Below are positions 34,620 through 63,611 of a DNA stretch of 64,000 nt, in pieces. Where the stretch lies: contig CAZSLO010000007.1 of assembly GCA_964608025.1 (NCBI GenBank), positions 14,825 through 78,824 of the forward strand, read 5' to 3'. The position numbers and the translations under genes were made by a program. Source of the stretch: an uncultured Dehalococcoidia bacterium. Its GTDB lineage: Bacteria > Chloroflexota > Dehalococcoidia > Lucifugimonadales > CAJWER01. The number at the start of each line of letters is the position of its first letter. Positions within the stretch are counted from its first letter, which is position 1. The notes beneath the pieces are model-generated. The model did no database searches, was not told where the DNA came from, and saw nothing but the letters and a program-made list of their open reading frames with translations.

Positions 34620-35858
34620 ATGAAACTTATCCTCAAAGCTGATCACATAATAGACGGAACTGTACCGTCTTATGATGTTTCGGAAAGAGACGCGGTACTT
34701 ATTGAAGACGGTAGAATTATCGCAATAGAAAAATCTGAGGTCTTTGGATCAACCCCGGACGCTGAGGTAATAACCGTTCCGGGAGGAACTATCCTCCCAG
34801 GATTTATCGAAGTCCACTCCCACATGCATTGCAGCGCAAGCCCAAGCGCCTTTGAAGATCTCGTGAACGACTCCCGTAACGAATTAATCATGAGGTCTGT
34901 CGAGTCAGTCCGCATGGCACTCTTATCAGGTGTAACTACAATGCGTGACCTGGGAAGTCGGAACGAAATAGCCTTCGACATAAAAAACGCTATCAACACA
35001 GGAATTATACCAGGACCACATCTCTTAGTAACTGGAACGCCCATAACGACTACCGGTGGCCATTGTCATATGTTCGGTACAGAGGCTGACACCCTTGAAG
35101 AGGCCGTCACAGCAGTACGAAACCAGGTCAAGCTGGGTGCAGACTGGATCAAGATCATGTCCACTGGTGGCAGGTTCACACCCCGAACCAACCCAAAGAT
35201 GCCACAGTACACAACCGAGATCCTTAAGGCAGTTGTGCAAGATGCGGAGAGACTCGGTATAAAGGTTGCAGCGCATTGCCATGGTGCATTGGGTGTAAAA
35301 AATTGCGTCGATGCAGGGGTGCACAATCTCATACATGCTACATGGATGTCATCTGATCCGGGGAGCGGATACGATTACGATCCAGACGTAGCAGACCAAA
35401 TCGCAGAAAAGAATATCTATGTAGATCCGACTATAGCAACTGGAGCCTTAAGAGAAGAACGAGATCCAGGTTGGCTTGCAAGGACACTAGAAGGCGCTTT
35501 CGACGATCTAGACCGTAGGTACGAGATCCTTCGAGATATGTGGGACAGGGGAGTCAAGTTTGTGACAGGCTTAGATTCGGGAATGAATTACATGGAATTT
35601 GGTGACTACGCCTGGGTACCAAGACTCATGGTGGAAAAACTTGGTATTTCCCCAACGGACGCTATAGTGTGCGGTACACGAATCTCTGCAGAATGCCTAG
35701 GAATTATTGAAGAAACAGGTACCGTTGAGCCTGGTAAAAGAGCAGACATAGTTATCGTGAAAGGGAACGCATCTGAGGATATAAAAGCCCTCCATAACGT
35801 AGACACGATAATCAAGTCAGGCATGGTGATTAAAAAAGCAGGGTCGACAAAGTTTTAA
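34620..35858 (+). CDS. Amidohydrolase-superfamily metal-dependent hydrolase
   Basis: PGFIEVHSHM is the HxH site. Also KIMSTGG, AAHCHG, H at NLIHAT and a late D (TGLDSG). 412 aa. Confidence 0.85.
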   Translation: MKLILKADHIIDGTVPSYDVSERDAVLIEDGRIIAIEKSEVFGSTPDAEVITVPGGTILPGFIEVHSHMHCSASPSAFEDLVNDSRNELIMRSVESVRMALLSGVTTMRDLGSRNEIAFDIKNAINTGIIPGPHLLVTGTPITTTGGHCHMFGTEADTLEEAVTAVRNQVKLGADWIKIMSTGGRFTPRTNPKMPQYTTEILKAVVQDAERLGIKVAAHCHGALGVKNCVDAGVHNLIHATWMSSDPGSGYDYDPDVADQIAEKNIYVDPTIATGALREERDPGWLARTLEGAFDDLDRRYEILRDMWDRGVKFVTGLDSGMNYMEFGDYAWVPRLMVEKLGISPTDAIVCGTRISAECLGIIEETGTVEPGKRADIVIVKGNASEDIKALHNVDTIIKSGMVIKKAGSTKF

Positions 35859-39815: not shown

Positions 39816-40841
39816 ATGGCCACCTACATTGCACGTAGACTTTTCCTAGCTTTCTTCACCTTTTGGGTAATATCAGTTGCGTCCTTCGTTATTATTGAAC
39901 TGCCCGAAGGTGACACAATTGACCGCATGTTCGATCGGACTACCCGCACGCACTCGGAGGCAATCGCCATAGAGATGCTTGCGGAGCTACGTCTCCAACT
40001 AGGCCTCGATCAACCGAAACACGTCAGATACAGCAAGTGGATGTGGGAACTTCTTCAAGGCAATTTAGGCCAGACCATGGTGCCATACGGTGGGTTTGGC
40101 AATCAGCGTCCTGTAAAGGAAGTTATTGGAGATCGACTATTCACCACAATCGCCTTAACTGGTTTTACCATACTGGTCACCTGGACGTTCGCGATCCCTG
40201 TTGGAATATATTCTGCAGTACGGCAACACTCTGTAGGAGACTATATTTTCACTTTCGTAGGCTTTACCGGCCTGGCAGTACCAGACTTCCTTCTTGGCCT
40301 AGTTCTAATGTACATCGCCTTCGCCTATTTTGATCAGAGTGTGGGAGGACTCTTCTCAGCAGACTATGCGGGTTCAGATTGGTTTGAAGGTACATTCAAT
40401 TGGGCAAAGTTATCCGACATGATCAACCACCTGTGGATTCCTGCTGTGGTACTGGGCACCTCGGGTACTGCTAGTCTTATCCGAATCATGCGTAACAATC
40501 TGCTGGATGAGCTTGGTAAGCCATACGTCATCACAGCCAGAGCAAAGGGTTCGGTATCGTGGAAAGTTATCCTCAAATACCCAGTTCGAGTCGCGATTAA
40601 CCCTATGGTTAGCACGATTGGTTACCTGCTCCCTTCCCTTGTAGGTGGCAGCGTTATCGTCTCTGTCGTACTCAGCCTACCAACCCTAGGGCCAGTTCTA
40701 CTCGAGGCTATCACCCAAGAAGACACTTATACAGCAGGACCTATCATACTAATGCTAGGCGCACTAACCGTCATAGGGACACTTATATCCGACATATTAC
40801 TGGCTGTCGTAGATCCAAGAATAAAGTACGTCCAATCGTAG
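39816..40841 (+). CDS. ABC peptide/nickel-type permease (DppB/OppB family), paralogue 1
   Basis: N-terminal YIARRL....F helix, the binding-protein-dependent transport EAA-type loop (ARAKG.S...ILKYPVR.A) and a C-terminal DILLAVVDPRIKY. Confidence 0.9.
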   Translation: MATYIARRLFLAFFTFWVISVASFVIIELPEGDTIDRMFDRTTRTHSEAIAIEMLAELRLQLGLDQPKHVRYSKWMWELLQGNLGQTMVPYGGFGNQRPVKEVIGDRLFTTIALTGFTILVTWTFAIPVGIYSAVRQHSVGDYIFTFVGFTGLAVPDFLLGLVLMYIAFAYFDQSVGGLFSADYAGSDWFEGTFNWAKLSDMINHLWIPAVVLGTSGTASLIRIMRNNLLDELGKPYVITARAKGSVSWKVILKYPVRVAINPMVSTIGYLLPSLVGGSVIVSVVLSLPTLGPVLLEAITQEDTYTAGPIILMLGALTVIGTLISDILLAVVDPRIKYVQS

Positions 40842-41241: not shown

Positions 41242-44200
41242 TCACTTCCAATCCCTTGCTGTTGGCAAAGGATGAGTAATTGGGATACTTTCTATATATT
41301 GAGCGACCACATTAAATGTGCCTTCTTTGCGTGATACGAAACCTTGTATCTTCAGCACAGGATTCTTAATAACGGCCTGAAAAAGCTCGAAGACTTTTGG
41401 CCATACCACCAGTGATATATGGCCAAATTCATCCTCGAGTGTTATGAATACTGCTTTAGAGCTTGGATGCTGTCTCCGAATCACCAGTCCAGCTACTGTT
41501 ACCTTTGCACCATTTTCTAAGCCAAGTATATCTTGACTCGATACCACATCTGGCAAGTCTTCACGCAAATATGTCATAAAATGGTTTGTGGGATGGATAC
41601 CCATCGTGCGGTACTCATTTAACATAATTTCCCAGTCGGTAATCAATGGAAGCTGTCCCATATCTTGTTCGACTGGGAACCCTAATGTCTTTTGAGCACC
41701 ATCCGGCTGATATAGAAGTCCAACTTCCCATAGAGCCGTACGTCGGTCTGAAACCATCGAGTCGAAAGCTCCAGCTGTGACCAAATTCTCAACATCATCT
41801 CGGTGGAGTCCACTACGATTCATCGTATCTGAAAGGCTATTGAAGTTCCCTCCCCTATCTCTTTCTTGAATTATTTCACCTATTTTGGATTCACCCAGAC
41901 CATCCACTTCCATAAACCCAAGTCTGAAAGTTTCATCGTCCACGATTGTGCATTTGGCTATACTATGGTTTATATCCGGATTTAATACTTGGATGCCATG
42001 ACGATTGGCATCCTCCTTAAGCGTCTCAAGATTGTAGAACCCCATCGGCTGTTGATTAAAAATCGCAACGTAAAACTCAAGTGGATAATGATATTTGAGC
42101 CACGACATCTGGTAAGCCGTAATTCCAAAAGCATAGGCATGTGATTCTGGAAACATATACTGCCCAGAGAATTTTCCGAATACCTTCCTCGCCACATCTT
42201 CTGATACACCATTGCCAGAAGCTCCATCTCTAAATTTTTCCCAGTATTTTTTAAGTACGCCGTGGTTGTTCTTACGTCCAAAGGCTCTTCGTAAATTATC
42301 ACCATCTTTATAAGTTAATCCTGCAACTTCTACCGCCAGTTCGTTGACTTGATCCTGGTAGAGAATTATGCCCAGAGTGCGTTCCAATGCTTTACGCTCT
42401 CTAGGATGATCATAATCCCACTCCATTTTCTTGCGATAACGCTCGATAAACTGGCTGACTCCATGATTGATCCCAACTCCCGGTCGAACAGCAGCAACTT
42501 CATAGGCCATCTCCGTAAAACTATTGGGTTTTAGTCGCACAACTGTCTGCATCTGGGCTGGTGACTCAATCTGAAATATACCTATTGTGTCGGCCTTGTG
42601 AATCGAGTCATATACATTTTGATCATCACTTATCATTGACAGGTCGATGAATTTACCCGTTCTCTCTTCGACCAACTCCAAGGTCTCGTGCATCTGTGAT
42701 AGAGCACCAAGACCCAAGAAATCTATTTTCACGAAGCCAGCATCCGCAATACTGTCTTTGTCCCACTGGCAAATGTATCTATTATCCAATCCTCCAGGCT
42801 GGATAGGAACCATGTCCATAATCGGCTTATCACTAATGACCATCCCGCTTGAATGTTGCATAAGATATTTCGGGAACCCTTGCAATTCAGACACCATCCC
42901 AATTAGCGTATCCCAAACCGGTACGTCAATCTTATGCCTGAAATCCGGAAGAGTTTCCATTTCAGATTTCAAGCTATTGCCATGGCTACTATCTACTCTC
43001 TTAGCCAACTTATCGACATCCTCTAAGGGAATGCCCAGTGCCTTTCCAAGATCCCGTATACAACCCTTCATTTTATATGTGGCAATCGCACCAGTGAGTA
43101 CAGATCTTTCCCATCCATACTTATCATGGATGCGCTTTATGGTTTCTTCACGTATATCACGTGGAAAGTCGATATCTATATCAGGGATATTTCCAATACT
43201 CTCGTTTAGGAATCGATCAAGGGCAAGTTCATATTTAAGAGGATCTATGTGCGAGAGACCAATTAAATATCCTACTAGCATTGATACTGACGAACCGCGT
43301 CCACGTCCGGGAGGTCGTTCTTCCAAGGGTATCTCTGGATCACTATGCCCAAGATTTATCATCACTTCACGAGCTATCTTTATCACCTCGTAGTAGATCA
43401 AGAAGAATCCGGACAGTCCATGCATTTTGATCAGTCGAAATTCCTCATCAAGCCTTTCTCTCACATCAGGGCGCATCAACCCATATTTGCGAACAGCTGC
43501 ATCTTCACAAATCTGTTCTAAATAACTCTGAGCCGTGTGTTCAGGTGGAAGATCGCTGTATCCTGGAAAGCTGTAACCAAGCTTCGTTTCTAAATTAAAT
43601 GTGCACCGGTTAGCTATCAAAAATGTATTGTTAACTGCTTCAGGTAGGTCCTGAAATAAAACATCCATTTCCTCTCTAGATCTCAAGTAGAAATTTGAGT
43701 TAGCACGTCGTTCCCGATGTGTTTCTTCGAGTGTCTTATTGTGCTTAATGGCTACTAGTAGATCCTGAAGCCTGTGTCGCTCAGGAAGGTGATAGTGGAC
43801 GTTATTGGTCGCTACAACAGGAACACCAAGAGTACGTGCTAGCTGTACTAAACGTTTATTTCGTAGCGTATCTCCATATATTAGGTTTTGCTGTAACTCA
43901 ACAAATACACTTGCAGTTCCAAACCAATCTATGTAATTGCTAATCTCTGCTTCAGCATCTTTAGTCCTTGCCTCGCTCACAAGGCGAGGCACACTGCCCT
44001 TAGCACAGCCCGTTAGCAATATAAGTCCTTCTGAATACTCCTTCAGTAATACTGGATTAAGCTTGGGATCCATCCTCTCCCCATCTAAACCCATCCGAGA
44101 TGCTGTCATCAAATTACAGAGGTTCGAGTATCCTTGGCGAGTCTCTGCCAAGAGTGTCAAATGGGATCCATTTGAGAGGGTTATCTCGGCGCCTGTGATC

Positions 44201-44385
44201 GGATGGATATGGATGCTATTGGCAAGTCGCGAGAATTCCATTGCCCCACTCAGGTTATCGTGATCAGTGAGTGCCAATGCTGGATATCCAAGTTCATCAG
44301 CACGAATAAGAAGCTCTTCCAGAGATGAGGCACCCTCTTGGAATGAATAGTTACTGTGGCAGTGAAGTTCAACGTAGGGCATCAT
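41242..44385 (-). CDS. dnaE2: Error-prone DNA polymerase III alpha-type subunit DnaE2 (ImuC)
   Basis: 1047 aa. PHP domain start YVELHCHSNYSFQEGAS, a Pol III alpha core (PDIDIDF), and an OB-fold C-terminus. It lies directly downstream of imuB, as in mutasome cassettes. Confidence 0.9.
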   Translation of the reverse strand: MMPYVELHCHSNYSFQEGASSLEELLIRADELGYPALALTDHDNLSGAMEFSRLANSIHIHPITGAEITLSNGSHLTLLAETRQGYSNLCNLMTASRMGLDGERMDPKLNPVLLKEYSEGLILLTGCAKGSVPRLVSEARTKDAEAEISNYIDWFGTASVFVELQQNLIYGDTLRNKRLVQLARTLGVPVVATNNVHYHLPERHRLQDLLVAIKHNKTLEETHRERRANSNFYLRSREEMDVLFQDLPEAVNNTFLIANRCTFNLETKLGYSFPGYSDLPPEHTAQSYLEQICEDAAVRKYGLMRPDVRERLDEEFRLIKMHGLSGFFLIYYEVIKIAREVMINLGHSDPEIPLEERPPGRGRGSSVSMLVGYLIGLSHIDPLKYELALDRFLNESIGNIPDIDIDFPRDIREETIKRIHDKYGWERSVLTGAIATYKMKGCIRDLGKALGIPLEDVDKLAKRVDSSHGNSLKSEMETLPDFRHKIDVPVWDTLIGMVSELQGFPKYLMQHSSGMVISDKPIMDMVPIQPGGLDNRYICQWDKDSIADAGFVKIDFLGLGALSQMHETLELVEERTGKFIDLSMISDDQNVYDSIHKADTIGIFQIESPAQMQTVVRLKPNSFTEMAYEVAAVRPGVGINHGVSQFIERYRKKMEWDYDHPRERKALERTLGIILYQDQVNELAVEVAGLTYKDGDNLRRAFGRKNNHGVLKKYWEKFRDGASGNGVSEDVARKVFGKFSGQYMFPESHAYAFGITAYQMSWLKYHYPLEFYVAIFNQQPMGFYNLETLKEDANRHGIQVLNPDINHSIAKCTIVDDETFRLGFMEVDGLGESKIGEIIQERDRGGNFNSLSDTMNRSGLHRDDVENLVTAGAFDSMVSDRRTALWEVGLLYQPDGAQKTLGFPVEQDMGQLPLITDWEIMLNEYRTMGIHPTNHFMTYLREDLPDVVSSQDILGLENGAKVTVAGLVIRRQHPSSKAVFITLEDEFGHISLVVWPKVFELFQAVIKNPVLKIQGFVSRKEGTFNVVAQYIESIPITHPLPTARDWK

Positions 44386-44687
44386 AGGCCAAGTAGTGGT
44401 CTATGATGCTGTTTATACCAGGTCCCATTAGCCAAGTCTCGGAATATAACAATCAGTGTTTCGTTATCAATACATACCTGGTAATAGCGCCTGGCAATTG
44501 AATTGGGTCTCCACCATTCATCAACTATTTCCCACATATCTTGTATCGAGATCACACTAAACCTTTGTCCACGTGAAATAATCGCGGTGGGCCTGTGTTC
44601 TCTAGTCTCTTCCACTTGAATCAGTTCTGGCTTATTTAAGGGGCGAATTCGACCAAGGCCTGTCTTCTTTCCGGTATTCTCGACCAC
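44382..44687 (-). CDS. ImuB C-terminal-domain-like small protein (separate ORF in the -1 frame relative to imuB)
   Basis: DEWWRPNSIARRYYQVCIDNETLIVIFRDLANGTWY resembles the (PE)WW...RDY(F/Y).V....G..LW.FR..... W block I recall at the C-terminus of full-length ImuB proteins. It overlaps imuB by 52 nt and forms an ATGA overlap with dnaE2. Confidence 0.5.
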   Translation of the reverse strand: MVENTGKKTGLGRIRPLNKPELIQVEETREHRPTAIISRGQRFSVISIQDMWEIVDEWWRPNSIARRYYQVCIDNETLIVIFRDLANGTWYKQHHRPLLGL

Positions 44688-45817
44688 GGCTCTACATCCA
44701 CCACCTTGTAAACTGGGGGTCTCATTCTTAAGCGTGTCCTGAGCTGATGCATAACATCACGAAGTTGCTCCTGTTTGCGTACTTCATCAAGAAGATTCGA
44801 TTGAATTCCAGTTTCTCCTGAGGTTTCGCAAACCGTAATACGTATATCCTCTAAGGGCCCTGCTATCTCGATCCCTTGCAGAGCATTTTTCAATACCAAG
44901 AACGCCGATTTACCTTTGTTAACGGGATTTTTAAAAACCAGTTTCTTCGACCATGGTGTCCGATTAAGGATATTCGACTGAATAAAAATAGACTGGACAT
45001 ATTTACCGGAGAGGCTTGGATGGGCAAATAACCGACTCAAAAGCAATTCTATTGCAGGAAATATATTGAAAATTGAGGTAGTAGGAACAGGAAAAGTGAG
45101 TAAGTCAGTCACAATATCAGGTCGCTTTGAGGGAACCACCGGATCGTTATCAAATCCATTCGACAATTCCCAGGCCACCCGGCCCTGTGGGCCGAATTGA
45201 GCCTGCATGGACCCAATCGATAGAGTTGCTATCTGGCCCATGGTGTGAAGGCCGAAGTCATGTAAACGTGATCGTTTCTCCCATGACAAAGGTAATAGAT
45301 CGATTGGGATTCTCTTAAGAAAGCTAGCTACATCATCCGGAACTAAGATTGTTCTTCCAGGCTTACTGGTAACAGCCGCAATGTAGGCTGGGTACTTCGA
45401 TTTTGCTAGTCCAAGACGAGCACCAAAACGAGATGGTACTACTCCAAGCAAGGTTTCTATGATTTCCTGATCGCTACCGTAAATACCTTCAGTTCCTTCC
45501 ATATCTAAAAAAACGCAACCTAGTTTCCCATTCTCGACAACTGGGCTCTTTTCGAAAAGAGCCTTCAGGAAGTTATCGAATATATTTTGATAGTAAACCT
45601 CGTCCGATTCGATAAAAGTCGCATTTTTACAACGAGACAGTGCCTCTTGCAGAGACATTCCGACCGAAACACCCTTGACTTCCGAAGAAAAATCGAGGAT
45701 CGAAGAAATCCCTTTAATCCGGGAGGTAACCAGAATCGGCTTGCCTTGCAGGCTCGGATTCCTATGTATCTCCGCCTTCACCGGCAAATGCGTGATCAAC
45801 ACACAAACGACCTTCAT
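44636..45817 (-). CDS. imuB: ImuB, catalytically inactive Y-family polymerase-like mutasome subunit (lacks the usual C-terminal module)
   Basis: Y-family fold (LDMEGTEGIYG, little-finger region), but the N-terminal catalytic DxD is replaced (VCVLITHLP), as in ImuB. It lies upstream of dnaE2. Its 393 aa is shorter than typical ImuB. Confidence 0.8.
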   Translation of the reverse strand: MKVVCVLITHLPVKAEIHRNPSLQGKPILVTSRIKGISSILDFSSEVKGVSVGMSLQEALSRCKNATFIESDEVYYQNIFDNFLKALFEKSPVVENGKLGCVFLDMEGTEGIYGSDQEIIETLLGVVPSRFGARLGLAKSKYPAYIAAVTSKPGRTILVPDDVASFLKRIPIDLLPLSWEKRSRLHDFGLHTMGQIATLSIGSMQAQFGPQGRVAWELSNGFDNDPVVPSKRPDIVTDLLTFPVPTTSIFNIFPAIELLLSRLFAHPSLSGKYVQSIFIQSNILNRTPWSKKLVFKNPVNKGKSAFLVLKNALQGIEIAGPLEDIRITVCETSGETGIQSNLLDEVRKQEQLRDVMHQLRTRLRMRPPVYKVVDVEPWSRIPERRQALVEFAP

Positions 45818-45857: not shown

Positions 45858-46113
45858 ATTTATGGTAATCTCTCTTACTTTGATTTTCAAGGGTATTGAT
45901 AGGAATTCCGAGCTGGTTTTTCCTTAGTCTAGGTTCAACCTATGGCTAACAGAATAGCTTCGTCAAAAAAGGTAAATCAGTATGCACACTCGCAGTTTTG
46001 GTCGTATTGTATGAAGTAATATCTAACAATACAGATCTAGACACTGCTTCAATCCACATAAGTAATAACGATTCGAACAGGGAAAATAATTACAGGACAC
46101 CCGTAGGAAAAGA

Positions 46114-48945
46114 GTGATTCGAACCATAAATCCACAACGCCTTATACGATCAACCTACTTGGGGATTAACTTATTAGCCCTCTGTATATCCACACTACTC
46201 GGATGTGACATGCTGACCACAACAGAAGAAACCGCTAGTTTATGCGTGGAACTAAACTCAAAACCTGTCTCGAATAAATTATCAGTAAAGATATCTCCGG
46301 TTAATAAACTACTCCTACTGGGTACATCTATAAACCTGCAAGCGAAGGCAGGGCCAGCGCCGGGAAGCTGCAGTTGGTCAAGCAGCGACAACACTGTCCT
46401 ACTCATCACCGAGTCATTTTCGCAAAACGACACTTCAGTCACCAATATCAAAACCAAAGGCATAGGTACTGCGACCATAACTATCAAGTACACAACGAAA
46501 CTGGGGGAGATCATTACAGACTCGATTGAGTTGACTGTGATCGATCTTGATATTGATGTACTGGGAATCCCTGATGCCGACGAGGAATCCGTGGGAGCAT
46601 TTTTACCCTTCAGCGGAGGTACCGACTCCATAAGAGAACTCACATTTAGGGCAATTCTAGGCAATGTCGTAGGCAAAATTACCCTGGACTCCAAATCTGG
46701 CGCTGACAAGATCCGGCTCTGGAGCAATGCGTCTAAAACTAAGCGCATTCAAACACCAACTCAATTTAATCCTACGGAATTACCTAGATCTCTGTTTGTA
46801 GAAGGCATAGAGCCTACCGTCGGCTCACGCGAGATCGAACTAAGCCTTACGATCAAGTCCGATTATGGACAAATATCCGATTCAATAAAGCTGTCCGTCG
46901 TACGCATCGATCTAGACGTCGACAGTGATCGTGATGGAATCGTGCATGACGATAGCGATGAGTCTGGAGAAAATGAGTGGACAGAAACCCAGGGTGCAAT
47001 GTTCATGGTCAATTACGACAACGATGATGGTGACCAAGACGGGCTTCCAGACGCAATATACTTCGATGTAAATGGCCTCCCTATATCTGAGGATTTCATC
47101 GTGAACGGCCCAAATGACACCAAGGATCTCACGGAGGTCGTCGTCCGGATTCACGGTATCGATACTAACGATCTTAAGGCTGTCAACTTACACGTACCGA
47201 AACTTGACCACATCAAGGGAATTCACATGTTCGATGCTATAGAGCAGGGAAGAATCTCTTTCTGGGGTGGTCCGAACGAAAGTAACTTAGCAACTGATCT
47301 CACAAAATACCTCGTAGCCGGAGGAAAAACTACGTTCGGGATCGAGGGTCTTTTCTTCAGATACACTGCGCCTGAAGCGTATGGTGGTATCTTTGAGGAT
47401 GGTTATTCCGGCGAATTAGAACTTGAACTAACTGCCACAGGACCCAAAGGTACATCATTAGGTTCCGACCAAGTTTTGCTGCGCGTTGCACCATTCATAA
47501 TTCTCCCTAACACTCAGGACGCAGTCGAAATATGGGGCCGTGATTTGAATCTCGAAGACTTTAGATCAACACTTCAGGACATCGTTGCACTTCACCATTA
47601 CCAATCCGGGGAAGACCAATGGACCCAAGACCACATAGAGATAGGGTACACTCAGGCGCCAGGCAGACCAAAGACACACATAGTGCTCCAGCTACCAAGA
47701 GCACGGCTAGCCAACGAAGGTATAGAAGACGCCACCCCACAGTGGCCTAGGGAACATTTACTTGGACGTAATCAAGGCCTATTCCGGTTCTGGAATTTCC
47801 ATATGACCAAGGGACTCAATGCAGGAGATTACGGTGGCAACATAGAACTAATGCCACCTACCCAAGAATGGCCGCTCGGACGCATCCTGGTAGGAAATAC
47901 TATAAGTCCACCTCTACTAAAATTTCTCCAGGACCAACGAGTACAAGATCCATTCCAGATTAGTACCGAATGGCTGCGTGTAGGACATGTCGACGAAGTA
48001 CTGGCTTTCGTGCCCGATGAAAATCAGTGGAGCCTCGTGATCGCAGATCCTATTCAGGCCAAAAGTCTTCTGGCCCCTCTTGAAGAAGATGCCGTTTTCT
48101 TCAAGAGGGGCCAAGTAAGCCGCGGATATTATTTCTCCGCATCACCCAAGAGTTCCAAAACAACACTTGTTGACTCTGCAAATACCAACTTCAGGCACTC
48201 CCGGTGGGAATTCGCTAAGTATATACGCATCTACGACGGGACAGGTGCTGGTCAAGTAGCAAGAATAAGCTCTAAAGACAGCGGGATACTGACCATAGAC
48301 AAGGTATGGCAAACACCTACAAAAGCTGCTGATTTAGGTTACAAAGGTCCAGCAGAGTCGACTGCATCTATTAATGGACAACTTGATTCCATTAGCATCC
48401 CACCTAGTGGTCAATGGTTCAACATTCCAGACGATACTAGTCGATATCTACTCATAGAAGATACTCTATTCTGGATCGATGGCATTGGACAAGAGGTCCC
48501 TGCTGTTATCAGTGTCCACGAAATACTTAACGACTCTCTCCTATGGGATTTGAACGATATAGCAGCGTACAAGATAAAAGATATCGTGGACCGGATAGAC
48601 AGCATCTCGGGGGATGACATCAACGTAATACGCGTTCCAGATTTCTTTATGGGATCATTCTCTGATAAAGGCGATGCGATTGAAGACGCATTCACATTCG
48701 CACCGGCCCTAGCAAATCTTCAAGTAGCCGGGGGGTGGGTTTTTTCCTCCGAGAGGTACGGCCCACAAAACCTAGACGGCAACGACGTTCTTCAACATGG
48801 TTTCGCAACCTTGATATCGAGTTCAGTCCATACTATCGATGGCTGGGATAGGTACCACAGATGGACAGGTAACGTACACTGTTTCACTTACGTAAAGAGA
48901 GAGCCTTTTGAATTCAACTGGTGGTCTCATATTTCTGAAAGATAA
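46114..48945 (+). CDS. Exported protein-arginine deiminase (PAD)-like lipoprotein with N-terminal Ig-like (Big_2) domain
   Basis: GTG start after AGGAAAAGA. Signal peptide plus lipobox (ISTLLGC). A Big_2-like domain follows (GTSINLQA...SWSSSDNTVL...GIGTATITI). The PAD middle-domain-like region has DVDSDRDG, MVNYDNDDGDQDG and RVAPFIILPNTQ. The PAD catalytic domain has WTQDHIEIGY, EWPLGRILVG, WLRVGHVDEVLAFVP and GNVHCFTYVKREPFEFNWW. Confidence 0.75.
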   Translation: MIRTINPQRLIRSTYLGINLLALCISTLLGCDMLTTTEETASLCVELNSKPVSNKLSVKISPVNKLLLLGTSINLQAKAGPAPGSCSWSSSDNTVLLITESFSQNDTSVTNIKTKGIGTATITIKYTTKLGEIITDSIELTVIDLDIDVLGIPDADEESVGAFLPFSGGTDSIRELTFRAILGNVVGKITLDSKSGADKIRLWSNASKTKRIQTPTQFNPTELPRSLFVEGIEPTVGSREIELSLTIKSDYGQISDSIKLSVVRIDLDVDSDRDGIVHDDSDESGENEWTETQGAMFMVNYDNDDGDQDGLPDAIYFDVNGLPISEDFIVNGPNDTKDLTEVVVRIHGIDTNDLKAVNLHVPKLDHIKGIHMFDAIEQGRISFWGGPNESNLATDLTKYLVAGGKTTFGIEGLFFRYTAPEAYGGIFEDGYSGELELELTATGPKGTSLGSDQVLLRVAPFIILPNTQDAVEIWGRDLNLEDFRSTLQDIVALHHYQSGEDQWTQDHIEIGYTQAPGRPKTHIVLQLPRARLANEGIEDATPQWPREHLLGRNQGLFRFWNFHMTKGLNAGDYGGNIELMPPTQEWPLGRILVGNTISPPLLKFLQDQRVQDPFQISTEWLRVGHVDEVLAFVPDENQWSLVIADPIQAKSLLAPLEEDAVFFKRGQVSRGYYFSASPKSSKTTLVDSANTNFRHSRWEFAKYIRIYDGTGAGQVARISSKDSGILTIDKVWQTPTKAADLGYKGPAESTASINGQLDSISIPPSGQWFNIPDDTSRYLLIEDTLFWIDGIGQEVPAVISVHEILNDSLLWDLNDIAAYKIKDIVDRIDSISGDDINVIRVPDFFMGSFSDKGDAIEDAFTFAPALANLQVAGGWVFSSERYGPQNLDGNDVLQHGFATLISSSVHTIDGWDRYHRWTGNVHCFTYVKREPFEFNWWSHISER

Positions 48946-49020: not shown

Positions 49021-50028
49021 ATGCACATGGTTCCTTACATAGTTCGTCGCATCTTACTATCGATGTTCACTATCTGGGCGATCTCTCTGCTGGCTTTCGT
49101 CATCATCGAATTACCACCTGGAGACCAGGTTGATCGTTTCAAGGAGATCACAGAAAGTAGACGGGAAGTGCCAGACCCGGAAAAGATAGAAGCCCTCCGG
49201 AGCTACTTGGGATTAGACCAGCCACAATACGTCCGATACCTCAAATGGATGGTTAACCTGGCACAGGGTGACCTGGGACTATCATTCCAGTATCGACGAG
49301 AAGTCGACATGCCTGTAAAACAGCTGCTAGAAAACCGCCTGTGGCTAACAGTCGCACTCACCGGATTCACGGTACTGGTCACCTGGACCTTCGCGATACC
49401 GGTTGGTATTTACTCCGCTGTCCGCCAACACTCGGTTGGCGACTATGTCTTTACGTTCCTCGGATTCACCGGTATCGCTGTGCCAGATTTCCTTCTAGGA
49501 CTGGTATTAATGTATGTAGCATTCGCATATTTCGATATGAGTGTCGGTGGACTCAATTCATCCGATTATGCAAACTCCCCCTGGAATTCAGCACGACTCC
49601 GAGATCTGCTAAATCATCTTTGGATACCCGCCATCGTACTCGGTACATCTGGAACTGCTGGCCTGATCAGGGTGATGCGTAACAACCTGCTTGACGAGCT
49701 AGGAAAACCCTACGTGGCCACTGCCAGGGCAAAGGGATTAACATCTGTCAAAGCTATATTGAAATACCCGGTAAGAGTGGCAATCAATCCACTCATCAGC
49801 ACTGTAGGGTACCTGTTGCCAGCACTGGTAAGCGGAAGCATTATCGTTTCTGTAGTACTTAGCCTGCCCACACTGGGACCGCTGTTGCTCGAGGCAATCC
49901 TAACTGAGGACGTTTTCCTTGCAGGATTCATCATCCTGATGGCAGGTGTGCTGACGGTAGTTGGCACACTGATCTCGGATATCTTACTTGCAGTGGTAGA
50001 CCCAAGGATTAAATACACGGCCGAATAG
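49021..50028 (+). CDS. ABC peptide/nickel-type permease (DppB/OppB family), paralogue 2
   Basis: Collinear with paralogue 1 and shares long identical runs (LVTWTFAIPVGIYSAVRQHSVGDY, AVPDFLLGLVLMY, RVMRNNLLDELGKPYV). Ends DILLAVVDPRIKY. Confidence 0.9.
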   Translation: MHMVPYIVRRILLSMFTIWAISLLAFVIIELPPGDQVDRFKEITESRREVPDPEKIEALRSYLGLDQPQYVRYLKWMVNLAQGDLGLSFQYRREVDMPVKQLLENRLWLTVALTGFTVLVTWTFAIPVGIYSAVRQHSVGDYVFTFLGFTGIAVPDFLLGLVLMYVAFAYFDMSVGGLNSSDYANSPWNSARLRDLLNHLWIPAIVLGTSGTAGLIRVMRNNLLDELGKPYVATARAKGLTSVKAILKYPVRVAINPLISTVGYLLPALVSGSIIVSVVLSLPTLGPLLLEAILTEDVFLAGFIILMAGVLTVVGTLISDILLAVVDPRIKYTAE

Positions 50029-50123: not shown

Positions 50124-50654
50124 GTGCATCATTCCTTCACTCCAGCCAGTGTTTCAAAACAAACATGGGAACGTCAGATGCAAATTCCTCTACCTCTTAA
50201 CGATGATACTGACTACGGATTTTGCTTCGCCTGCGGCCCACTTAATCCCTCAGGGCTCCGTCTTCGATTCAAACATGATAGGGATCAAATCGTTACTGAA
50301 TATACGCCCAACCAAGAACATCAGGGCTTCCCTGGTTATCTGCACGGAGGTGTAATATCGGCTCTGCTAGATGAGGTTATGAGCCGGGTATCTTTACTTG
50401 ACAATATATGGACAATGACAGCACGCATAGATGTCCGCTACCGGCAACCCATACCGACAAGTCACTCAATCAAAGCGTTTGCGAAGCGGCGAAACAAACG
50501 GCTAAATATCTTCGAAACTATCGGCTGGATAGAACTACCTGATGGCTCAGTCGCGGCAGAGGCAATCGGAACATTCATACCCGTTAAAAAAGATGATCTT
50601 GCCAAGATGGGTGAAGGTTATCCAATACTAGCCAAAAAGTGGATGGTCAGCTAA
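50124..50654 (+). CDS. PaaI/YbgC-type hotdog-fold thioesterase
   Basis: CFACGP.NP.GL...F and GY.HGG..SALLDE are typical of PaaI-family thioesterases. The start may instead be the Met at 50178 (MQIPLPL). Confidence 0.7.
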   Translation: MHHSFTPASVSKQTWERQMQIPLPLNDDTDYGFCFACGPLNPSGLRLRFKHDRDQIVTEYTPNQEHQGFPGYLHGGVISALLDEVMSRVSLLDNIWTMTARIDVRYRQPIPTSHSIKAFAKRRNKRLNIFETIGWIELPDGSVAAEAIGTFIPVKKDDLAKMGEGYPILAKKWMVS

Positions 50655-50888: not shown

Positions 50889-51656
50889 TTACATCATCAA
50901 GTCGCCCCCATTGATATCAAACGCAACTCCGGTCATGTAGGAAGCTCTATCCGAAGCAATGAATCCAACAAGCTCTGCCACCTCCCAAGGTTCACCTAAC
51001 CTTGGAATCGGGAAACTTTCAGCATATTGCTTAGTACGATCATCGCTAATCGTGGTACGGACCATCTCAGTGTCTATGAGCCCTGGACAAACTGCGTTGA
51101 CTGTAATCCCATTCGCCGCCTCTTCTTTCGCAAGATGCCGCGTCAATCCAAGTATCCCGGCCTTGGCAGCTGTATAGTGGGAGCCACCTATAGTGCTGTA
51201 CTGACGTCCTGCACTGGACGAGAAATTCACAATCCGTCCCCATCCGGAATCACGCATTGGCCTGAGTACAGCTCTGGAACATAAATAGGTACTTTTCAAA
51301 TTAGCGTCTACAACAAGATCCCACTCATCCTCTTCTATATCAATCAGGCGGGTTGGACGTAGAATCCCCGCGTTGTTTACCAATATATGTATCTCGCCAA
51401 AGAGATCAATCGCGGTTTTAATCATTATGTCCACATCAGATTTCGACGTCACATCTCCAACCGAAAAATCAACATTGGCACCTGCAACACGAAGATCACG
51501 CACAGTTTCTTCAGCCGAAATCTGGTTAATATCGTTTATTAAAATATTGGCGCCCCGGGAAGCAAGTAAATTAGAAACAGCCCTACCCATTCCCTGCCCT
51601 GCCCCAGTAACAATAGCAGTTTTCCCATTAAGCTCAGTCGAAAAATCCATTTCCAT
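50889..51656 (-). CDS. Classical SDR (FabG-like 3-oxoacyl reductase family)
   Basis: TGAGQGMG, NNAG, S...Y..AK catalytic set and PGLIDT. 255 aa. Confidence 0.9.
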   Translation of the reverse strand: MEMDFSTELNGKTAIVTGAGQGMGRAVSNLLASRGANILINDINQISAEETVRDLRVAGANVDFSVGDVTSKSDVDIMIKTAIDLFGEIHILVNNAGILRPTRLIDIEEDEWDLVVDANLKSTYLCSRAVLRPMRDSGWGRIVNFSSSAGRQYSTIGGSHYTAAKAGILGLTRHLAKEEAANGITVNAVCPGLIDTEMVRTTISDDRTKQYAESFPIPRLGEPWEVAELVGFIASDRASYMTGVAFDINGGDLMM

Positions 51657-51662
51657 ATCTCT

Positions 51663-52850
51663 CTATATCACACCAAGTTTTTTACCAGCCTCACAGAAAA
51701 CTGATATCGCCTTATCAAGATGTTCAGTTGTGTGAGAGGCAGATAGTTGAACACGTATACGTGCCTCACCTCTTGGCACAACCGGGAAGCTAAATCCTAC
51801 TACAAAGATACCTCTTTTATTGACTGCCTGTGCAAGTTCAACAGTCTTAATTTCATCACGGAGCATGATCGGTACTATTGGATGTTTACCAGGGATAATA
51901 TCAAAGCCCAGTGCAGACATTTCAGATCGGAAATATCTAGTGTTCTCCCAAAGTGTTTCACGAAGACTGGGCGTGGTTTTTACAATCTCAAGAGCCTTCA
52001 ATGCACCGGTAACGATAGGAGGAGCAAGGGTGTTGGAAAATAGATACGGTCTAGATCGTTGCCTTAGAAATTCTATTATCTCTTTCTTTCCCGTGGTGAA
52101 ACCGCCAGATGCTCCTCCCAATGCCTTGCCCATTGTACTTGTGAGAATATCAATGCGGTCCATTACACCCATCTCATCAGGACTCCCCAGGCCGTTAGGA
52201 CCCAAGAATCCTGTCGCATGCGAGTCATCAACCATCACAAGAGCATCATACTTATCGGCAAGATCACAAATATCTGCGAGAGGCGCGATATCACCTTGCA
52301 TGCTAAAAACACCATCTGTGGCGATCATGCGAAACCTGGCAGAACTGGTCTCTTTAAGCTTCTCCTCCAAATCAACCATATCAGAGTGCTTAAAAACCTT
52401 GCGCTGTGCCCGACAAAGACGCACCCCATCGATGATTGAGGCATGGTTGAGTGCATCGCTAATGATTGCATCTTCCGCACTTAGAATAGTTTCGAAAAGA
52501 CCAGCGTTTGCATCAAAACAGGATGTATATAAAATAGTGTCTTCTGTTCCAAACCAGCCTGTCAATTCCTGTTCTAGGGTTTTATGTATATCCTGAGTCC
52601 CACAGATAAATCGAACCGAAGCCATTCCAAAACCAAATTGTTTGAGGCCATCTATTACAGCCTGCTCTACTATTGGACTGTCGGCTAATCCAAGGTAATT
52701 ATTGGCACAGAAGTTGATCATCTCACCTTGACTAGTATCAACATTAGAACCCTGGGCGGTCTTAATAATCTTCTCATCCTTATACAAACCGCTATCTCGG
52801 ATTACCTGAAGTTCCTTTTCAAGCCATGGCCGTATTTTTGTATATGTCAA
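51663..52850 (-). CDS. kbl: Glycine C-acetyltransferase (2-amino-3-ketobutyrate CoA ligase)
   Basis: Alpha-oxoamine synthase family. NNYLGL, DALNHASIIDG, DDSHATG and STMGKALGG (PLP lysine). 395 aa. Confidence 0.85.
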   Translation of the reverse strand: MTYTKIRPWLEKELQVIRDSGLYKDEKIIKTAQGSNVDTSQGEMINFCANNYLGLADSPIVEQAVIDGLKQFGFGMASVRFICGTQDIHKTLEQELTGWFGTEDTILYTSCFDANAGLFETILSAEDAIISDALNHASIIDGVRLCRAQRKVFKHSDMVDLEEKLKETSSARFRMIATDGVFSMQGDIAPLADICDLADKYDALVMVDDSHATGFLGPNGLGSPDEMGVMDRIDILTSTMGKALGGASGGFTTGKKEIIEFLRQRSRPYLFSNTLAPPIVTGALKALEIVKTTPSLRETLWENTRYFRSEMSALGFDIIPGKHPIVPIMLRDEIKTVELAQAVNKRGIFVVGFSFPVVPRGEARIRVQLSASHTTEHLDKAISVFCEAGKKLGVI

Positions 52851-53032
52851 TTAATACTCTCCAATATCGTCGACATTTCCATCTATTCGTAGCATATTAG
52901 ACCCATCTAGCATCTTATGCTCGAGATTATCGGCTTGGCACCTAAGTGTCAATATTCTTTGTCTAGATATGAGATTAGCTGTGCTACTATATCCCTATAT
53001 TTGGTTAATCACGCTACGAGGAGGTAGCGACC

Positions 53033-56038: not shown

Positions 56039-56039
56039 A

Positions 56040-59006: not shown

Positions 59007-59232
59007 TCCTGTTTGTTGTAGTGTCCCGTTCTGCTAAAAACCATTTACGACATCCAAGGCCGTGGTACCACCACTCCTGCTGATCACCAGCAACATTGCC
59101 CCTAGCGTAAAAGTATTTCATCCAAATTCCAGTTTCAGCATCCGGCGCCGGACGCTGAACGACCTCGCCGCCGAATCTAAATTCGTATACGTTTCGATCA
59201 CCACAATTAGGACAATTAACTAGAAAAGACAT
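58969..59232 (-). CDS. mgdB: N-methylglutamate dehydrogenase subunit B (sarcosine oxidase delta-subunit-like)
   Basis: 87 aa. CPNCG.R...EF..GGE zinc-ribbon start typical of SoxD. Confidence 0.8.
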   Translation of the reverse strand: MSFLVNCPNCGDRNVYEFRFGGEVVQRPAPDAETGIWMKYFYARGNVAGDQQEWWYHGLGCRKWFLAERDTTTNRIDSTMWPGEADS

Positions 59233-59238
59233 GGCTTC

Positions 59239-63589: not shown

Positions 63590-63611
63590 TGACAAAACCT
63601 CATATTGAGAA

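What the first reader, a model, noticed from the sequence alone, without database searches (positions are those of the whole stretch)
46114..48945. Exported vertebrate/cyanobacterial-type protein-arginine deiminase (PAD) homologue with an intact catalytic set
**Seen in the sequence.** The 943-aa ORF aligns by eye with human PAD4, as I remember it, across the middle and catalytic domains:
- DVDSDRDG...AMFMVNYDNDDGDQDG vs DADRDG...AILLVNCDRDN (acidic calcium-site-like region)
- RVAPFIILPNTQ vs RVAPWIMTPNTQ
- WTQDHIEIGY vs WMQDEMEIGY (Asp350, codon at 47629)
- EWPLGRILVG vs EYPLGRILFG
- WLRVGHVDEVLAFVP vs WLSVGHVDEFLSFVP (His471 and Asp473, codons at 47986 and 47992)
- GNVHCFTYVKREPFEFNWW vs GEVHCGTNVRRKPFSFKWW (Cys645, codon at 48880)

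The N-terminus is different from the animal enzymes. It has a signal peptide with lipobox LLGC, then a Big_2-type Ig domain. The segment between the GHVDE motif and the C-terminal lobe looks roughly 100+ residues longer than in PAD4.

**Established knowledge.** This PAD family is essentially a vertebrate family. Bacterial homologues are sporadic, notably in cyanobacteria, which have been proposed as the donors to animals. Their physiological role in bacteria is unknown.

**Inference.** An extracytoplasmic, lipid-anchored PAD in a marine heterotroph would act on external protein or peptide arginine (or another guanidino substrate). It could feed the adjacent permease.
Basis: partly seen in the sequence, partly recalled or inferred. 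Interest (0 to 1): 0.8.

Follow-up and report, generated by a model that had tools for sequence, protein, structure and literature searches.

The report
Surface-anchored bacterial arginine deiminase, new clade
This gene from a marine Dehalococcoidia bacterium encodes a membrane-tethered, outward-facing relative of the human enzymes that convert protein arginine to citrulline; it belongs to a large, unstudied microbial branch of that family with an extra 130-residue subdomain and sits among peptide-transporter genes, which suggests a role in harvesting nitrogen from external peptides.

Summary
ORF 46114-48945 (943 aa) is a real PAD-family protein: Pfam PAD E=2.3e-55, human PAD2 E=2.8e-32, and a confident model (pLDDT 92.7) that matches PAD4 by Foldseek (E=1.6e-41). 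The catalytic Asp506/His625/Asp627/Cys923 lie at the stated codons. The lipobox (Cys31) recurs in most full-length relatives.

It is not the vertebrate/cyanobacterial type. It has no PAD_N domain and no Ca2 site, and it falls in a separate clade (100% NJ bootstrap). That clade is defined by a ~130-residue all-beta insert (res 664-795) with no Pfam or PDB sequence match. The insert is absent from the published PADI sequence sets I checked. At least 139 clusters (50% identity) carry it, including one annotated Woesearchaeota, often as the C-terminal module of very large proteins.

In 11 of 12 Dehalococcoidia loci examined the gene lies among OppB-type peptide permease paralogues, and most also carry a dipeptidase-like amidohydrolase. 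Two distant relatives sit beside family-5 peptide-binding proteins.

Best reading: a calcium-binding, surface-tethered peptidyl-arginine deiminase linked to peptide uptake. Activity and substrate are untested. This is a new variant of a known kind, of moderate interest.

The parts
46105..46108 (+). Shine-Dalgarno-like AGGA, 5 nt upstream of the GTG start
   Evidence: Read directly from the sequence. The region is conserved in 91%-identical metagenome contigs.
46114..46206 (+). Lipoprotein signal peptide (residues 1-31): n-region with R3/R9/R12, hydrophobic core, lipobox L-L-G-C31
   Evidence: Fits a PROSITE-like lipobox pattern. A homologous hydrophobic segment plus (L/V)(A/T)(S/G)C is present in most full-length relatives. 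Some gene callers start at Met33 (ATG 46210) and lose it. A 943-aa call also exists.
46231..46533 (+). N-terminal module 1 (residues ~40-140): all-beta, Big_2-like Ig domain (weak support)
   Evidence: No Pfam hit. A profile of 4 relatives gives only weak PDB hits, all to Big-type Ig domains: SbsB E=0.025, 'Bacterial Ig-like domain group 2' E=0.2, LigB, intimin.
46534..46899 (+). N-terminal module 2 (residues 141-262): PAD_M-like repeat domain lacking the acidic loop
   Evidence: phmmer/jackhmmer find the same ~120-aa unit in tandem in giant relatives. Iteration pulls in the genuine PAD_M domain. No Pfam family.
46900..47457 (+). PAD_M-type Ig-like calcium-binding domain (residues 263-448)
   Evidence: Pfam PAD_M 25.4 bits against cutoff 24.8. 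Acidic ligands D270/D272/D274 and N300/D302/D304/D335/D338 align with PAD2 Ca6 and Ca3-5 residues. Modelled at high confidence.
47458..48102 (+). PAD catalytic domain, first part (residues 449-663). Contains W503, Q505, D506 (47629), E509, R529, E578, H625 (47986), D627 (47992)
   Evidence: Pfam PAD stretch 450-659. Residue mapping to human PADI2. Invariant in the 23-sequence family alignment.
48103..48498 (+). Clade-specific ~130-residue all-beta insert subdomain (residues 664-795), motif Y-[IV]-R-I-Y-x-G-x-G-A-G-Q-[VI]-A
   Evidence: - Absent from the classical PAD P0026 and from 13 reference PADIs.
- Most 10-residue pLDDT blocks across it average above 90, with two dips of about 82-86.
- No Pfam hit in 26 diverse copies and no PDB sequence hit with a profile.
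- Present in 162 of 174 collected proteins.
- The motif is absent from all supplementary sequence files of PMC8826395.
48499..48945 (+). PAD catalytic domain, C-terminal part (residues 796-943) with the nucleophile C923 (48880) in H-C-F-T-Y, plus stop codon
   Evidence: Second Pfam/PDB matched stretch 859-941. C923 is invariant. Phe in place of Gly after the Cys is specific to the close Dehalococcoidia subclade.
49021..50028 (+). OppB/DppB-type ABC permease, 76 nt downstream on the same strand (conserved neighbour)
   Evidence: Pfam BPD_transp_1_N + BPD_transp_1. NCBIfam best match Opp4B at 1.5e-67, below the cutoff. Orthologues follow the PAD gene in 10 of 12 Dehalococcoidia loci.
39816..40841 (+). 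Second OppB-type permease paralogue (69% identical to 49021-50028), the conserved upstream neighbour
   Evidence: In other loci it lies directly upstream of the PAD gene. In L005 the permease stop and the PAD start are 2 nt apart.
34620..35858 (+). Amidohydrolase-superfamily dipeptidase-like gene, conserved member of the neighbourhood
   Evidence: Pfam Amidohydro_1. NCBIfam 'Xaa-Pro dipeptidase' (Caulobacter type) 1.1e-69, below the cutoff. 62-73% identical orthologues lie upstream in 10 of the 12 Dehalococcoidia loci.
50124..50654 (+). Hotdog-fold thioesterase-like gene, conserved at the downstream end of the cluster
   Evidence: Weak 4HBT/hotdog hits. 52-69% identical orthologues occupy the same position in the related loci.

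Best explanation
**What it is.** The gene encodes a lipoprotein. It would be exported, lipid-modified at Cys31 and tethered to the outer face of the cytoplasmic membrane of a marine Dehalococcoidia cell. By established knowledge this is a single-membrane lineage. Behind the anchor come two Ig-like spacer modules, then a PAD_M calcium-binding domain, then a PAD catalytic domain.

**Proposed chemistry (inferred).** Cys923 attacks the guanidinium carbon of a peptide-bound arginine. Asp506 and Asp627 hold the guanidinium and His625 assists. This releases ammonium and leaves citrulline. The active-site Ca1 site and the PAD_M acidic cluster are retained. The Ca2 'switch' of animal enzymes is absent. 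Seawater calcium (~10 mM) would therefore keep the enzyme loaded.

**Family placement.** The enzyme belongs to a distinct, largely uncharacterised clade of extracytoplasmic PADs. The clade is defined by a ~130-residue beta-rich insert in the catalytic domain, whose role is unknown. It might act as a substrate-binding lid.

**Proposed physiological role (inferred).** The enzyme deiminates arginine residues of external peptides or proteins. That would harvest ammonium and/or remove positive charge, coupled to uptake through the co-located Opp-type permeases and to intracellular peptidases.

**Shown versus inferred.** Shown: family membership, fold, intact catalytic residues, lipobox, clade separation, conserved synteny. 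Inferred: activity, peptidyl-arginine as substrate, calcium dependence, the link to nitrogen or peptide acquisition.
For: **Family and fold**
- Pfam PAD E=2.3e-55 and marginal PAD_M.
- PDB phmmer hits are PADs only.
- AF2 pLDDT 92.7. Foldseek PAD4 E=1.6e-41, TM 0.64/0.70.

**Residues**
- Catalytic D506/H625/D627/C923 and W503 are invariant.
- Ca1 ligands Q505/E509/E578 are retained, as are PAD_M ligands N300/D302/D304/D335/D338.
- R529 aligns with PAD4 Arg372.

**Export**
- The lipobox is shared across the family.
- More distant clade members carry signal peptides or TM anchors and typical extracellular modules such as PKD, FlgD_ig, PA14 and Big_2.
- In an archaeal contig the PAD gene is followed by a Peptidase_A8 (LspA-like) gene.

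**Peptide link**
- 11 of 12 Dehalococcoidia loci place the gene among OppB-type permeases. In 10 of the 12 it also lies downstream of a dipeptidase-like amidohydrolase.
- Relatives at ~40% identity sit beside SBP_bac_5, OppB and OppC genes in different arrangements.

**Precedent**
- Bacterial PF03068 enzymes are catalytically active: cyanobacterial PADI (PMC8826395) and the Streptomyces citrulassin PAD (bioRxiv 10.1101/2020.07.16.207027).
Against: - There are no activity or expression data.
- The permease genes are all OppB-type paralogues. No OppC, ATPase or binding protein lies in the Dehalococcoidia cluster, so a working transporter is not demonstrated.
- Several clade members, and one Dehalococcoidia locus (L016), have no transporter neighbours.
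- Residues that contact the substrate backbone in PAD4 are variable across the clade. The Arg372 position is Y, R or H.
- The HCFTY motif and the insert could change specificity.
- I could not obtain model coordinates. The catalytic geometry and the position of the insert relative to the active site are therefore unverified.
- The tree is neighbour-joining only, with 13 references.
Confidence: 0.55

Rival explanations
1. Same fold and chemistry, different substrate. The enzyme hydrolyses a free small guanidino compound outside the cell (L-arginine, agmatine, guanidino acids from marine dissolved organic matter), not peptide-bound arginine. It would release ammonium for uptake.
For: - The clade carries a unique insert.
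- The Dehalococcoidia subclade replaces Gly-Thr-Asn after the catalytic Cys with Phe-Thr-Tyr.
- The position of PAD4 Arg372 is variable in the clade.
- From my own knowledge, other members of the guanidino-modifying superfamily act on small molecules and have a bulky residue after the Cys.
Against: - All sequence and fold similarity is to peptidyl-arginine deiminases. There is no hit to agmatine or arginine deiminase models.
- The neighbours are peptide-type (family 5 / Opp) transport genes and a dipeptidase-like gene, not amino-acid or polyamine transporters.
Confidence: 0.2
2. A tailoring or remodelling enzyme. It citrullinates a specific secreted peptide (e.g. a RiPP) or the cell's own surface or S-layer proteins. 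Alternatively it detoxifies arginine-rich antimicrobial peptides. It would not serve nutrition.
For: - The only bacterial PF03068 PAD with a proven role modifies a lasso peptide encoded elsewhere in the genome (bioRxiv 10.1101/2020.07.16.207027).
- Many clade members are C-terminal modules of giant repeat proteins.
- One protein with the same repeats ends in a toxin-deaminase domain instead. That hints at effector-like uses of this architecture.
Against: - No RiPP, immunity or S-layer gene is conserved next to the Dehalococcoidia gene.
- What is conserved is permease and peptidase-like genes.
- The window protein is a modest 943-aa lipoprotein, not a giant repeat protein.
Confidence: 0.17
3. 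Translation starts at Met33 (ATG 46210), as some gene callers chose. The enzyme would then be cytoplasmic and modify intracellular proteins.
For: The 91%-identical relative P0001 was called as 911 aa starting at that Met.
Against: - The upstream 32 codons are open and conserved.
- They encode a canonical lipobox that recurs at the equivalent place in relatives only 40-65% identical.
- An AGGA precedes the GTG.
- Other callers give 943 aa.
Confidence: 0.05
4. A catalytically dead binding protein or adhesin derived from a PAD.
For: Inactive PAD paralogues exist in animals: PAD6 appears among the hits as 'inactive protein-arginine deiminase type-6'.
Against: The full catalytic tetrad plus the Ca1 ligands are invariant across the family. 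133 of 139 clade representatives keep the His-Cys motif.
Confidence: 0.03

Closest known systems
Animal PAD1-4 and three-domain cyanobacterial PADI (Pfam PAD_N + PAD_M + PAD; Clade Ai of Cummings et al. 2021, PMC8826395)
   Same: - Same catalytic domain fold and the same Asp/His/Asp/Cys tetrad.
- Same Trp before the catalytic Asp.
- Ca1 ligands and the PAD_M acidic cluster are retained.
- The PAD_M-PAD_C linker motif RVAPxIxxPNT resembles the animal form.
   Different: - No PAD_N.
- Ca2 site and the D389 switch are lost.
- ~130-residue insert in the catalytic domain.
- Two extra N-terminal Ig-like modules.
- Lipoprotein export instead of a cytosolic or nuclear location.
- Separate clade in the NJ tree.
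Two-domain actinobacterial/fungal PADIs, including the Streptomyces albulus PAD that citrullinates the lasso peptide citrulassin A
   Same: - PAD_M + PAD_C core without PAD_N, and no Ca2 site.
- At least some have N-terminal export signals. The Nocardia brasiliensis sequence in the published alignment begins with a lipobox-like ...ALSGC.
- Bacterial origin.
   Different: - Lacks their His-rich linker motif: ILPNTQ here against THHH/LHNH.
- Carries the insert, which they lack.
- They form their own 100%-supported clade.
- Genomic context here is peptide permeases.
Porphyromonas gingivalis PPAD (Pfam PF04371, PAD_porph)
   Same: Works alike in outline. It is a cell-surface-attached bacterial peptidyl-arginine deiminase acting on external peptides and releasing ammonia. 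It belongs to the same guanidino-modifying superfamily and uses Cys chemistry (established knowledge; for the family distinction).
   Different: A different family. There is no PF04371 hit at E<=1. PPAD is calcium-independent, is exported by the type IX system and lacks a PAD_M domain.

Membership tests
PAD family (Pfam PF03068, protein-arginine deiminase) | Catalytic-domain HMM match above the curated threshold | tested here: met
   188.7 bits against cutoff 25, E=2.3e-55, in two stretches split by the insert.
PAD family (Pfam PF03068, protein-arginine deiminase) | Catalytic Asp-His-Asp-Cys tetrad (PAD4 D350/H471/D473/C645) | tested here: met
   D506/H625/D627/C923 align with PADI2 D351/H471/D473/C647. 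They are invariant in 23 close relatives and nearly so in 30 clade members.
PAD family (Pfam PF03068, protein-arginine deiminase) | PAD-type alpha/beta-propeller fold that superposes on solved PADs | tested here: met
   Model pLDDT 92.7. Foldseek PAD4 8r8u_A E=1.6e-41, TMq 0.64, TMt 0.70. Residue-level geometry could not be checked because no coordinates were returned.
PAD family (Pfam PF03068, protein-arginine deiminase) | PAD_M Ig-like calcium-binding middle domain | tested here: met
   PF08527 25.4 bits against cutoff 24.8, so marginal. Ligand positions N300/D302/D304/D335/D338 and D270/D272/D274 are conserved.
PAD family (Pfam PF03068, protein-arginine deiminase) | Calcium-dependent conversion of peptidyl-arginine to citrulline | not testable with these tools
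   Needs enzyme assays.
Three-domain animal/cyanobacterial PADI (Clade Ai, PMC8826395) | N-terminal PAD_N domain | tested here: not met
   No PF08526 hit at E<=1 in the window protein, nor in any of 50 clade members. The preceding module is a PAD_M-like repeat.
Three-domain animal/cyanobacterial PADI (Clade Ai, PMC8826395) | Ca2 site and calcium-switch residue (PADI2 E352, D370, S371, D389) | tested here: not met
   The corresponding residues are H507, Q526, L527 and N553.
Three-domain animal/cyanobacterial PADI (Clade Ai, PMC8826395) | Phylogenetic placement inside the animal+cyanobacterial clade | tested here: not met
   NJ tree, 44 taxa, 501 columns, 100 bootstraps. The animal+cyanobacterial clade has 96% support and excludes it. 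The insert clade has 100% support. NJ only; a maximum-likelihood tree was not run.
Two-domain actinobacterial/fungal PADI (PMC8826395) | His-rich linker motif at PADI2 300-302, and clade membership | tested here: not met
   The linker is APFIILPNTQ. The actinobacterial+fungal clade has 100% support and excludes it.
PPAD / agmatine deiminase (Pfam PF04371) | HMM match | tested here: not met
   No hit at E<=1.
Bacterial lipoprotein | Basic n-region, hydrophobic core, lipobox [LVI][ASTVIL][GAS]C within ~35 residues | tested here: met
   R3/R9/R12, core 16-30, L-L-G-C31. The pattern matches here and in 14 of 23 relatives.
Bacterial lipoprotein | Processing by Lgt/LspA and lipid attachment in the host | not tested
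   Host genome not searched.
Big_2 bacterial Ig-like domain (Pfam PF02368) | HMM match for residues ~40-140 | tested here: inconclusive
   No Pfam hit. A 4-sequence profile gives only weak PDB hits, all Big-type Ig domains (E=0.025-1.2).

The most novel reading that the evidence does not exclude
The insert-bearing clade is an unrecognised, widespread system of extracellular citrullination in environmental bacteria and archaea. In abundant mesopelagic Dehalococcoidia (SAR202-like), a seawater-calcium-loaded, surface-tethered PAD strips ammonium from, and neutralises, arginine residues of dissolved proteins and peptides before Opp-type uptake. The new beta-rich subdomain would act as the substrate-capturing element. 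This would add an unknown step to marine organic-nitrogen cycling.
Probability: 0.25. Interest if true: 0.7.

Novelty: new variant of a known kind. Interest (0 to 1): 0.55.

Why it matters
PAD enzymes matter in human disease, and their evolutionary origin is debated. The published surveys I read (PMC8826395 and bioRxiv 10.1101/2020.07.16.207027) did not include this branch:

- The insert motif is absent from the sequence sets of PMC8826395.
- I found no paper linking PADs with SAR202. The only Chloroflexi co-mentions were incidental.
- The single member for which a source gives a name is annotated 'hypothetical protein'.

What the branch adds:

- At least 139 clusters at 50% identity. All members examined carry export signals. 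The PAD module is always C-terminal. Archaeal members are present.
- It therefore widens the picture of where and how citrullination is used. It also supplies an additional lineage for any tree that bears on the cyanobacteria-to-animal transfer hypothesis.

For ocean microbiology, a surface deiminase repeatedly encoded beside peptide-transport genes gives a concrete hypothesis. The organisms are Dehalococcoidia, and TARA mesopelagic reads match this protein's cluster. The hypothesis concerns how they access nitrogen in dissolved protein, and enzyme assays can test it. The conserved insert is a new structural element on a drug-target fold.

Tried and rejected
- **Genome scan with the single protein.** It found no relatives. 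Repeating it with the family alignment worked.
- **First AF2 run.** The full length with 23 close sequences was unusable: pLDDT 48.8. Nothing structural is claimed for residues 1-257 beyond mostly beta strands.
- **Insert.** No Pfam hit in the window copy or in 26 diverse copies. No PDB sequence hit with a profile. A resemblance of the Gly-rich hairpin to KOW/SH3-like motifs is by eye only, so I do not claim it.
- **The 667-aa ORF upstream of the permease (37757-39760).** I considered it as the missing solute-binding protein and rejected that. It has no signal peptide and no SBP_bac_5 or other Pfam, NCBIfam or PDB match.
- **PPAD/agmatine-deiminase identity.** Rejected.
- **Promoter/terminator scan around the gene.** It gave nothing above shuffled expectation.
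- **Source contig look-up by exact protein.** It failed, so the organism is inferred from relatives only.
- **NCBIfam.** It has no model for the protein.


Full report
**1. The observation**

The ORF is real: 46114..48945, plus strand, GTG start, 943 codons.

They correspond to D506 (47629), H625 (47986), D627 (47992) and C923 (48880).

Homology to protein-arginine deiminases is unambiguous:
- Pfam PAD (PF03068) scores 188.7 bits against a cutoff of 25 (E=2.3e-55). PAD_M (PF08527) just passes, at 25.4 against 24.8.
- phmmer against all PDB sequences returns only PAD1/2/3/4/6. The best hit is human PAD2 at E=2.8e-32.
- No PPAD or agmatine-deiminase model matches at E<=1.
- NCBIfam has no model for this protein.

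**2. Structure**

A first AF2 run on the full length with 23 close homologues failed (pLDDT 48.8). A second run covered residues 258-943 with a 50-sequence alignment that included distant relatives. It gave pLDDT 92.7 and pTM 0.91.

**3. Residue-level comparison**

I aligned the protein with labelled reference PADIs copied from Supplementary File 6 of Cummings et al. 2021 (PMC8826395). The list of PADI2 calcium ligands is partly from my memory of the PAD2 and PAD4 structure papers and partly confirmed by the text of PMC8826395.

| Feature (PADI2 numbering) | Window protein | Status |
|---|---|---|
| Catalytic D351/H471/D473/C647 | D506/H625/D627/C923 | kept; invariant or nearly so in the clade |
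| W348 | W503 | kept |
| Ca1: Q350/E354/E412 | Q505/E509/E578 | kept |
| PAD_M acidic ligands (Ca3-5) | N300/D302/D304/D335/D338 | kept |
| Ca6-type ligands | D270/D272/D274 | kept |
| Ca2: E352/D370/S371 | H507/Q526/L527 | lost |
| Switch residue D389 | N553 | lost here; D, N or G in the clade |

Other points from the same alignment:
- The PAD_M-PAD_C linker reads RVAPFIILPNTQ. This is close to the animal RIAPWIMTPN and unlike the His-rich actinobacterial/fungal version.
- After the catalytic Cys, the close Dehalococcoidia subclade has Phe-Thr-Tyr. Almost all other PADs have Gly-Thr-Asn.

**4. The extra length is a discrete insert**

His625 to Cys923 spans 298 residues, against 176 in PADI2. 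Projection onto a classical 603-aa bacterial PAD (P0026) places about 130 extra residues at 664-795.

- In the model the insert is mostly beta. Most 10-residue pLDDT blocks across it average above 90, with two dips of about 82-86.
- It carries a conserved Gly-rich hairpin, Y-[IV]-R-I-Y-x-G-x-G-A-G-Q-[VI]-A.
- It has no Pfam match, either in the window copy or in 26 diverse copies.
- A profile of it finds nothing in PDB sequences.
It hits none of the 13 reference PADIs.
- The motif does not occur in any of the supplementary sequence files of PMC8826395.

**5. The N-terminal 262 residues**

- *Residues 1-31* form a lipoprotein signal peptide: R3/R9/R12, a hydrophobic core, then L-L-G-C31.
  - The same design (for example ...LALASCH...LVLGCQ) is present in most full-length relatives.
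  - An AGGA lies 5 nt before the GTG.
  - The segment is conserved in 91%-identical marine contigs.
  - An identical 943-aa product is recorded from an NCBI-derived contig.
  - Some gene callers started the 91% relative at Met33 and thereby removed the signal.
- *Residues ~40-140* have the by-eye look of a Big_2 domain. Pfam does not detect it. A small profile gives only weak PDB hits, all to Big-type Ig domains (E=0.025-1.2).
- *Residues 141-262* are a repeat module.
  - phmmer finds the same unit up to about ten times in tandem in a 2,941-aa protein.
  - jackhmmer iteration merges it with the PAD_M domain itself.
  - It is therefore a PAD_M-like Ig domain that has lost the acidic loop. It is not PAD_N.

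**6. Who has it**

A word-indexed search found 26 homologues. A pattern scan of one genome per species found 12 loci in Dehalococcoidia MAGs and one in an Actinomycetota MAG.

The window's flanking genes share order with those Dehalococcoidia loci and 62-88% amino-acid identity. Members of the protein's 90% cluster come from TARA mesopelagic samples. The window is therefore from a marine Dehalococcoidia. 'SAR202-like' is my inference.

An exhaustive HMMER search of 1.84 billion cluster representatives gave these counts:

| E-value threshold | Matching clusters |
|---|---|
| <=1e-3 | 1,937 |
| <=1e-10 | 1,062 |
| <=1e-30 | 204 |

Of the 150 best, 139 carry the insert:
- Median length is 955 aa, and 60 exceed 1,000 aa.
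- In 98% the PAD module is C-terminal.
- 133 keep the His-Cys motif.

Members examined carry signal peptides or TM anchors and extracellular-type modules.

Two members lie on archaeal contigs, which carry Nop10, eIF2-alpha, eIF1A, L37e and S8e genes. One of the two is annotated Candidatus Woesearchaeota, 'hypothetical protein'.

**7. Phylogeny**

I built a neighbour-joining tree with 44 taxa, 501 columns with at most 20% gaps, Kimura distances and 100 bootstraps, rooted on the Arthrospira outgroup used by Cummings et al..

| Clade | Bootstrap |
|---|---|
| Insert-bearing sequences | 100% |
| Animal + three-domain cyanobacterial | 96% |
| Actinobacterial + fungal | 100% |
| Insert clade + (animal, cyanobacterial, proteobacterial, P0026), apart from actinobacterial/fungal | 96% |

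This is a rough method with few references. It is still enough to reject placement inside the vertebrate/cyanobacterial clade.

**8. Genomic context**

In the 12 Dehalococcoidia loci examined (L005-L007, L009-L017) the usual order is:

RDD protein – amidohydrolase (NCBIfam 'Xaa-Pro dipeptidase', Caulobacter type, 1e-69, below cutoff) – ceramidase-like – one or two OppB-type permeases – (small gene) – PAD – one or two more OppB-type permeases – hotdog-fold protein.

- 11 of the 12 loci have OppB-type permeases next to the PAD gene, and 10 of the 12 have the amidohydrolase upstream. L016 has no permease.
- In L005 the upstream permease and the PAD gene are 2 nt apart.
- In the window an ImuB/DnaE2 cassette (41242-45817, minus strand) sits between the upstream permease and the PAD gene. 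The 91% relative also has ImuB next to the PAD gene.
- No OppC, ATPase or binding-protein gene is in these clusters.
- Two relatives at about 40% identity lie next to SBP_bac_5 genes. In one case OppB and OppC are there too, in a different arrangement.
- Other relatives have unrelated neighbours.

The recurrent link to family-5 (peptide-type) ABC importer parts is the main functional clue.

**9. Mechanism proposed**

- *Shown:* PAD fold; intact nucleophile and acid/base set; retained Ca1 and PAD_M acidic sites; lipobox; clade identity; synteny.
- *Inferred from established knowledge:*
  - Chloroflexota have a single membrane, so the lipoprotein faces the outside.
  - Seawater holds about 10 mM Ca2+, which is above the sub-millimolar to millimolar requirement of animal PADs.
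  - PAD chemistry releases ammonium and yields a neutral ureido group.
- *Inference:* the enzyme deiminates arginine residues of external peptides or proteins, coupled to Opp-type uptake and intracellular peptidases. That would provide nitrogen or make cationic peptides transportable.

Rivals:
- A small-guanidine substrate.
- Tailoring of a specific secreted peptide or surface protein, by analogy with the Streptomyces citrulassin PAD.
- A cytoplasmic enzyme translated from Met33.
- A dead enzyme.

**10. Comparison with what is known, and novelty**

Bacterial PF03068 PADs are known:
- 295 species in PMC8826395.
- 837 proteins in bioRxiv 10.1101/2020.07.16.207027, mainly Actinobacteria, Cyanobacteria and Proteobacteria.

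Export is probably not unique either. The Nocardia sequence in the published alignment starts with a lipobox-like signal.

What is new is the clade:
- The insert subdomain.
- The PAD_M-like repeat modules.
- Its size in metagenomes, and archaeal members.
- Its presence in marine Dehalococcoidia with conserved peptide-permease synteny.

Full-text searches found no paper linking PADs with SAR202. The only Chloroflexi co-mentions were incidental. I rate it a new variant of a known kind, with interest about 0.55.

Noticed in passing
window 41242-45817 (- strand): A mutagenesis cassette: a small DUF6504-like ORF (44382-44687), an ImuB-like Y-family polymerase (44636-45817) and DnaE2 (41242-44385). 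It sits between the upstream permease and the PAD gene. The other Dehalococcoidia loci lack it there and have a second permease plus a small gene instead. The 91%-identical marine contig L003 also has ImuB next to the PAD gene.
   Followed up: partly
window 39816-40841 and 49021-50028; L001 5359-7419 and 10230-12320: Tandem arrays of two to four OppB/DppB-type ABC permease paralogues (65-88% identical to each other). No OppC-type partner, ATPase or solute-binding gene lies in the cluster. This is an unusual 'permease-only' arrangement conserved in Dehalococcoidia MAGs.
   Followed up: partly
window 54096-63595 (- strand): A gene set with the domain content of the N-methylglutamate (methylamine utilisation) pathway: DAO/SoxB-like, GCV_T/SoxG-like, SoxA-like, glutamine-synthetase-like, Glu_synthase, GXGXG and class-II GATase ORFs.
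   Followed up: partly
window 37757-39760 (+): A 667-aa ORF with no Pfam, NCBIfam or PDB sequence match and no signal peptide. A 48%-identical homologue lies upstream of the permeases in L017. Function unknown.
   Followed up: partly
P0117 (2,941 aa, metagenome protein found): A giant protein made of ten or more tandem PAD_M-like repeats, alternating between short forms and long forms that carry the acidic loop. It ends in a BURPS668_1122-type toxin deaminase domain rather than a PAD catalytic domain. The PAD_M-like module is thus a general extracellular repeat, also used in a polymorphic-toxin-like architecture.
   Followed up: partly
L024 7001-9951 (GCA_018303205.1, Candidatus Woesearchaeota) and L022 (GCA_029263715.1): Insert-type PAD genes on archaeal contigs. 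In L024 the PAD gene is followed 33 nt later by a Peptidase_A8 (lipoprotein signal peptidase-like) gene. An S-layer protein gene is nearby.
   Followed up: no
window 46114-46210; P0001: Gene callers disagree on the start. The 91% relative was called from Met33 (911 aa), which deletes the signal peptide. Several other relatives are called with long, probably spurious N-terminal extensions upstream of the lipobox.
   Followed up: yes
window 50889-54031: An SDR (50889-51656, -) and a glycine C-acetyltransferase (Kbl; 51663-52850, -; NCBIfam 610 bits against cutoff 460) look like a threonine-degradation pair. They are followed by an M19 membrane dipeptidase (53033-54031, +).
   Followed up: no
Supplementary File 6 of PMC8826395: The Nocardia brasiliensis PADI begins MAYRRFCLLAGVAAVALSGC, a lipobox-like signal. 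Several fungal PADIs begin with signal-peptide-like segments. The term 'signal peptide' does not occur in the paper's main text, so export of the two-domain PADIs does not appear to be discussed there.
   Followed up: no
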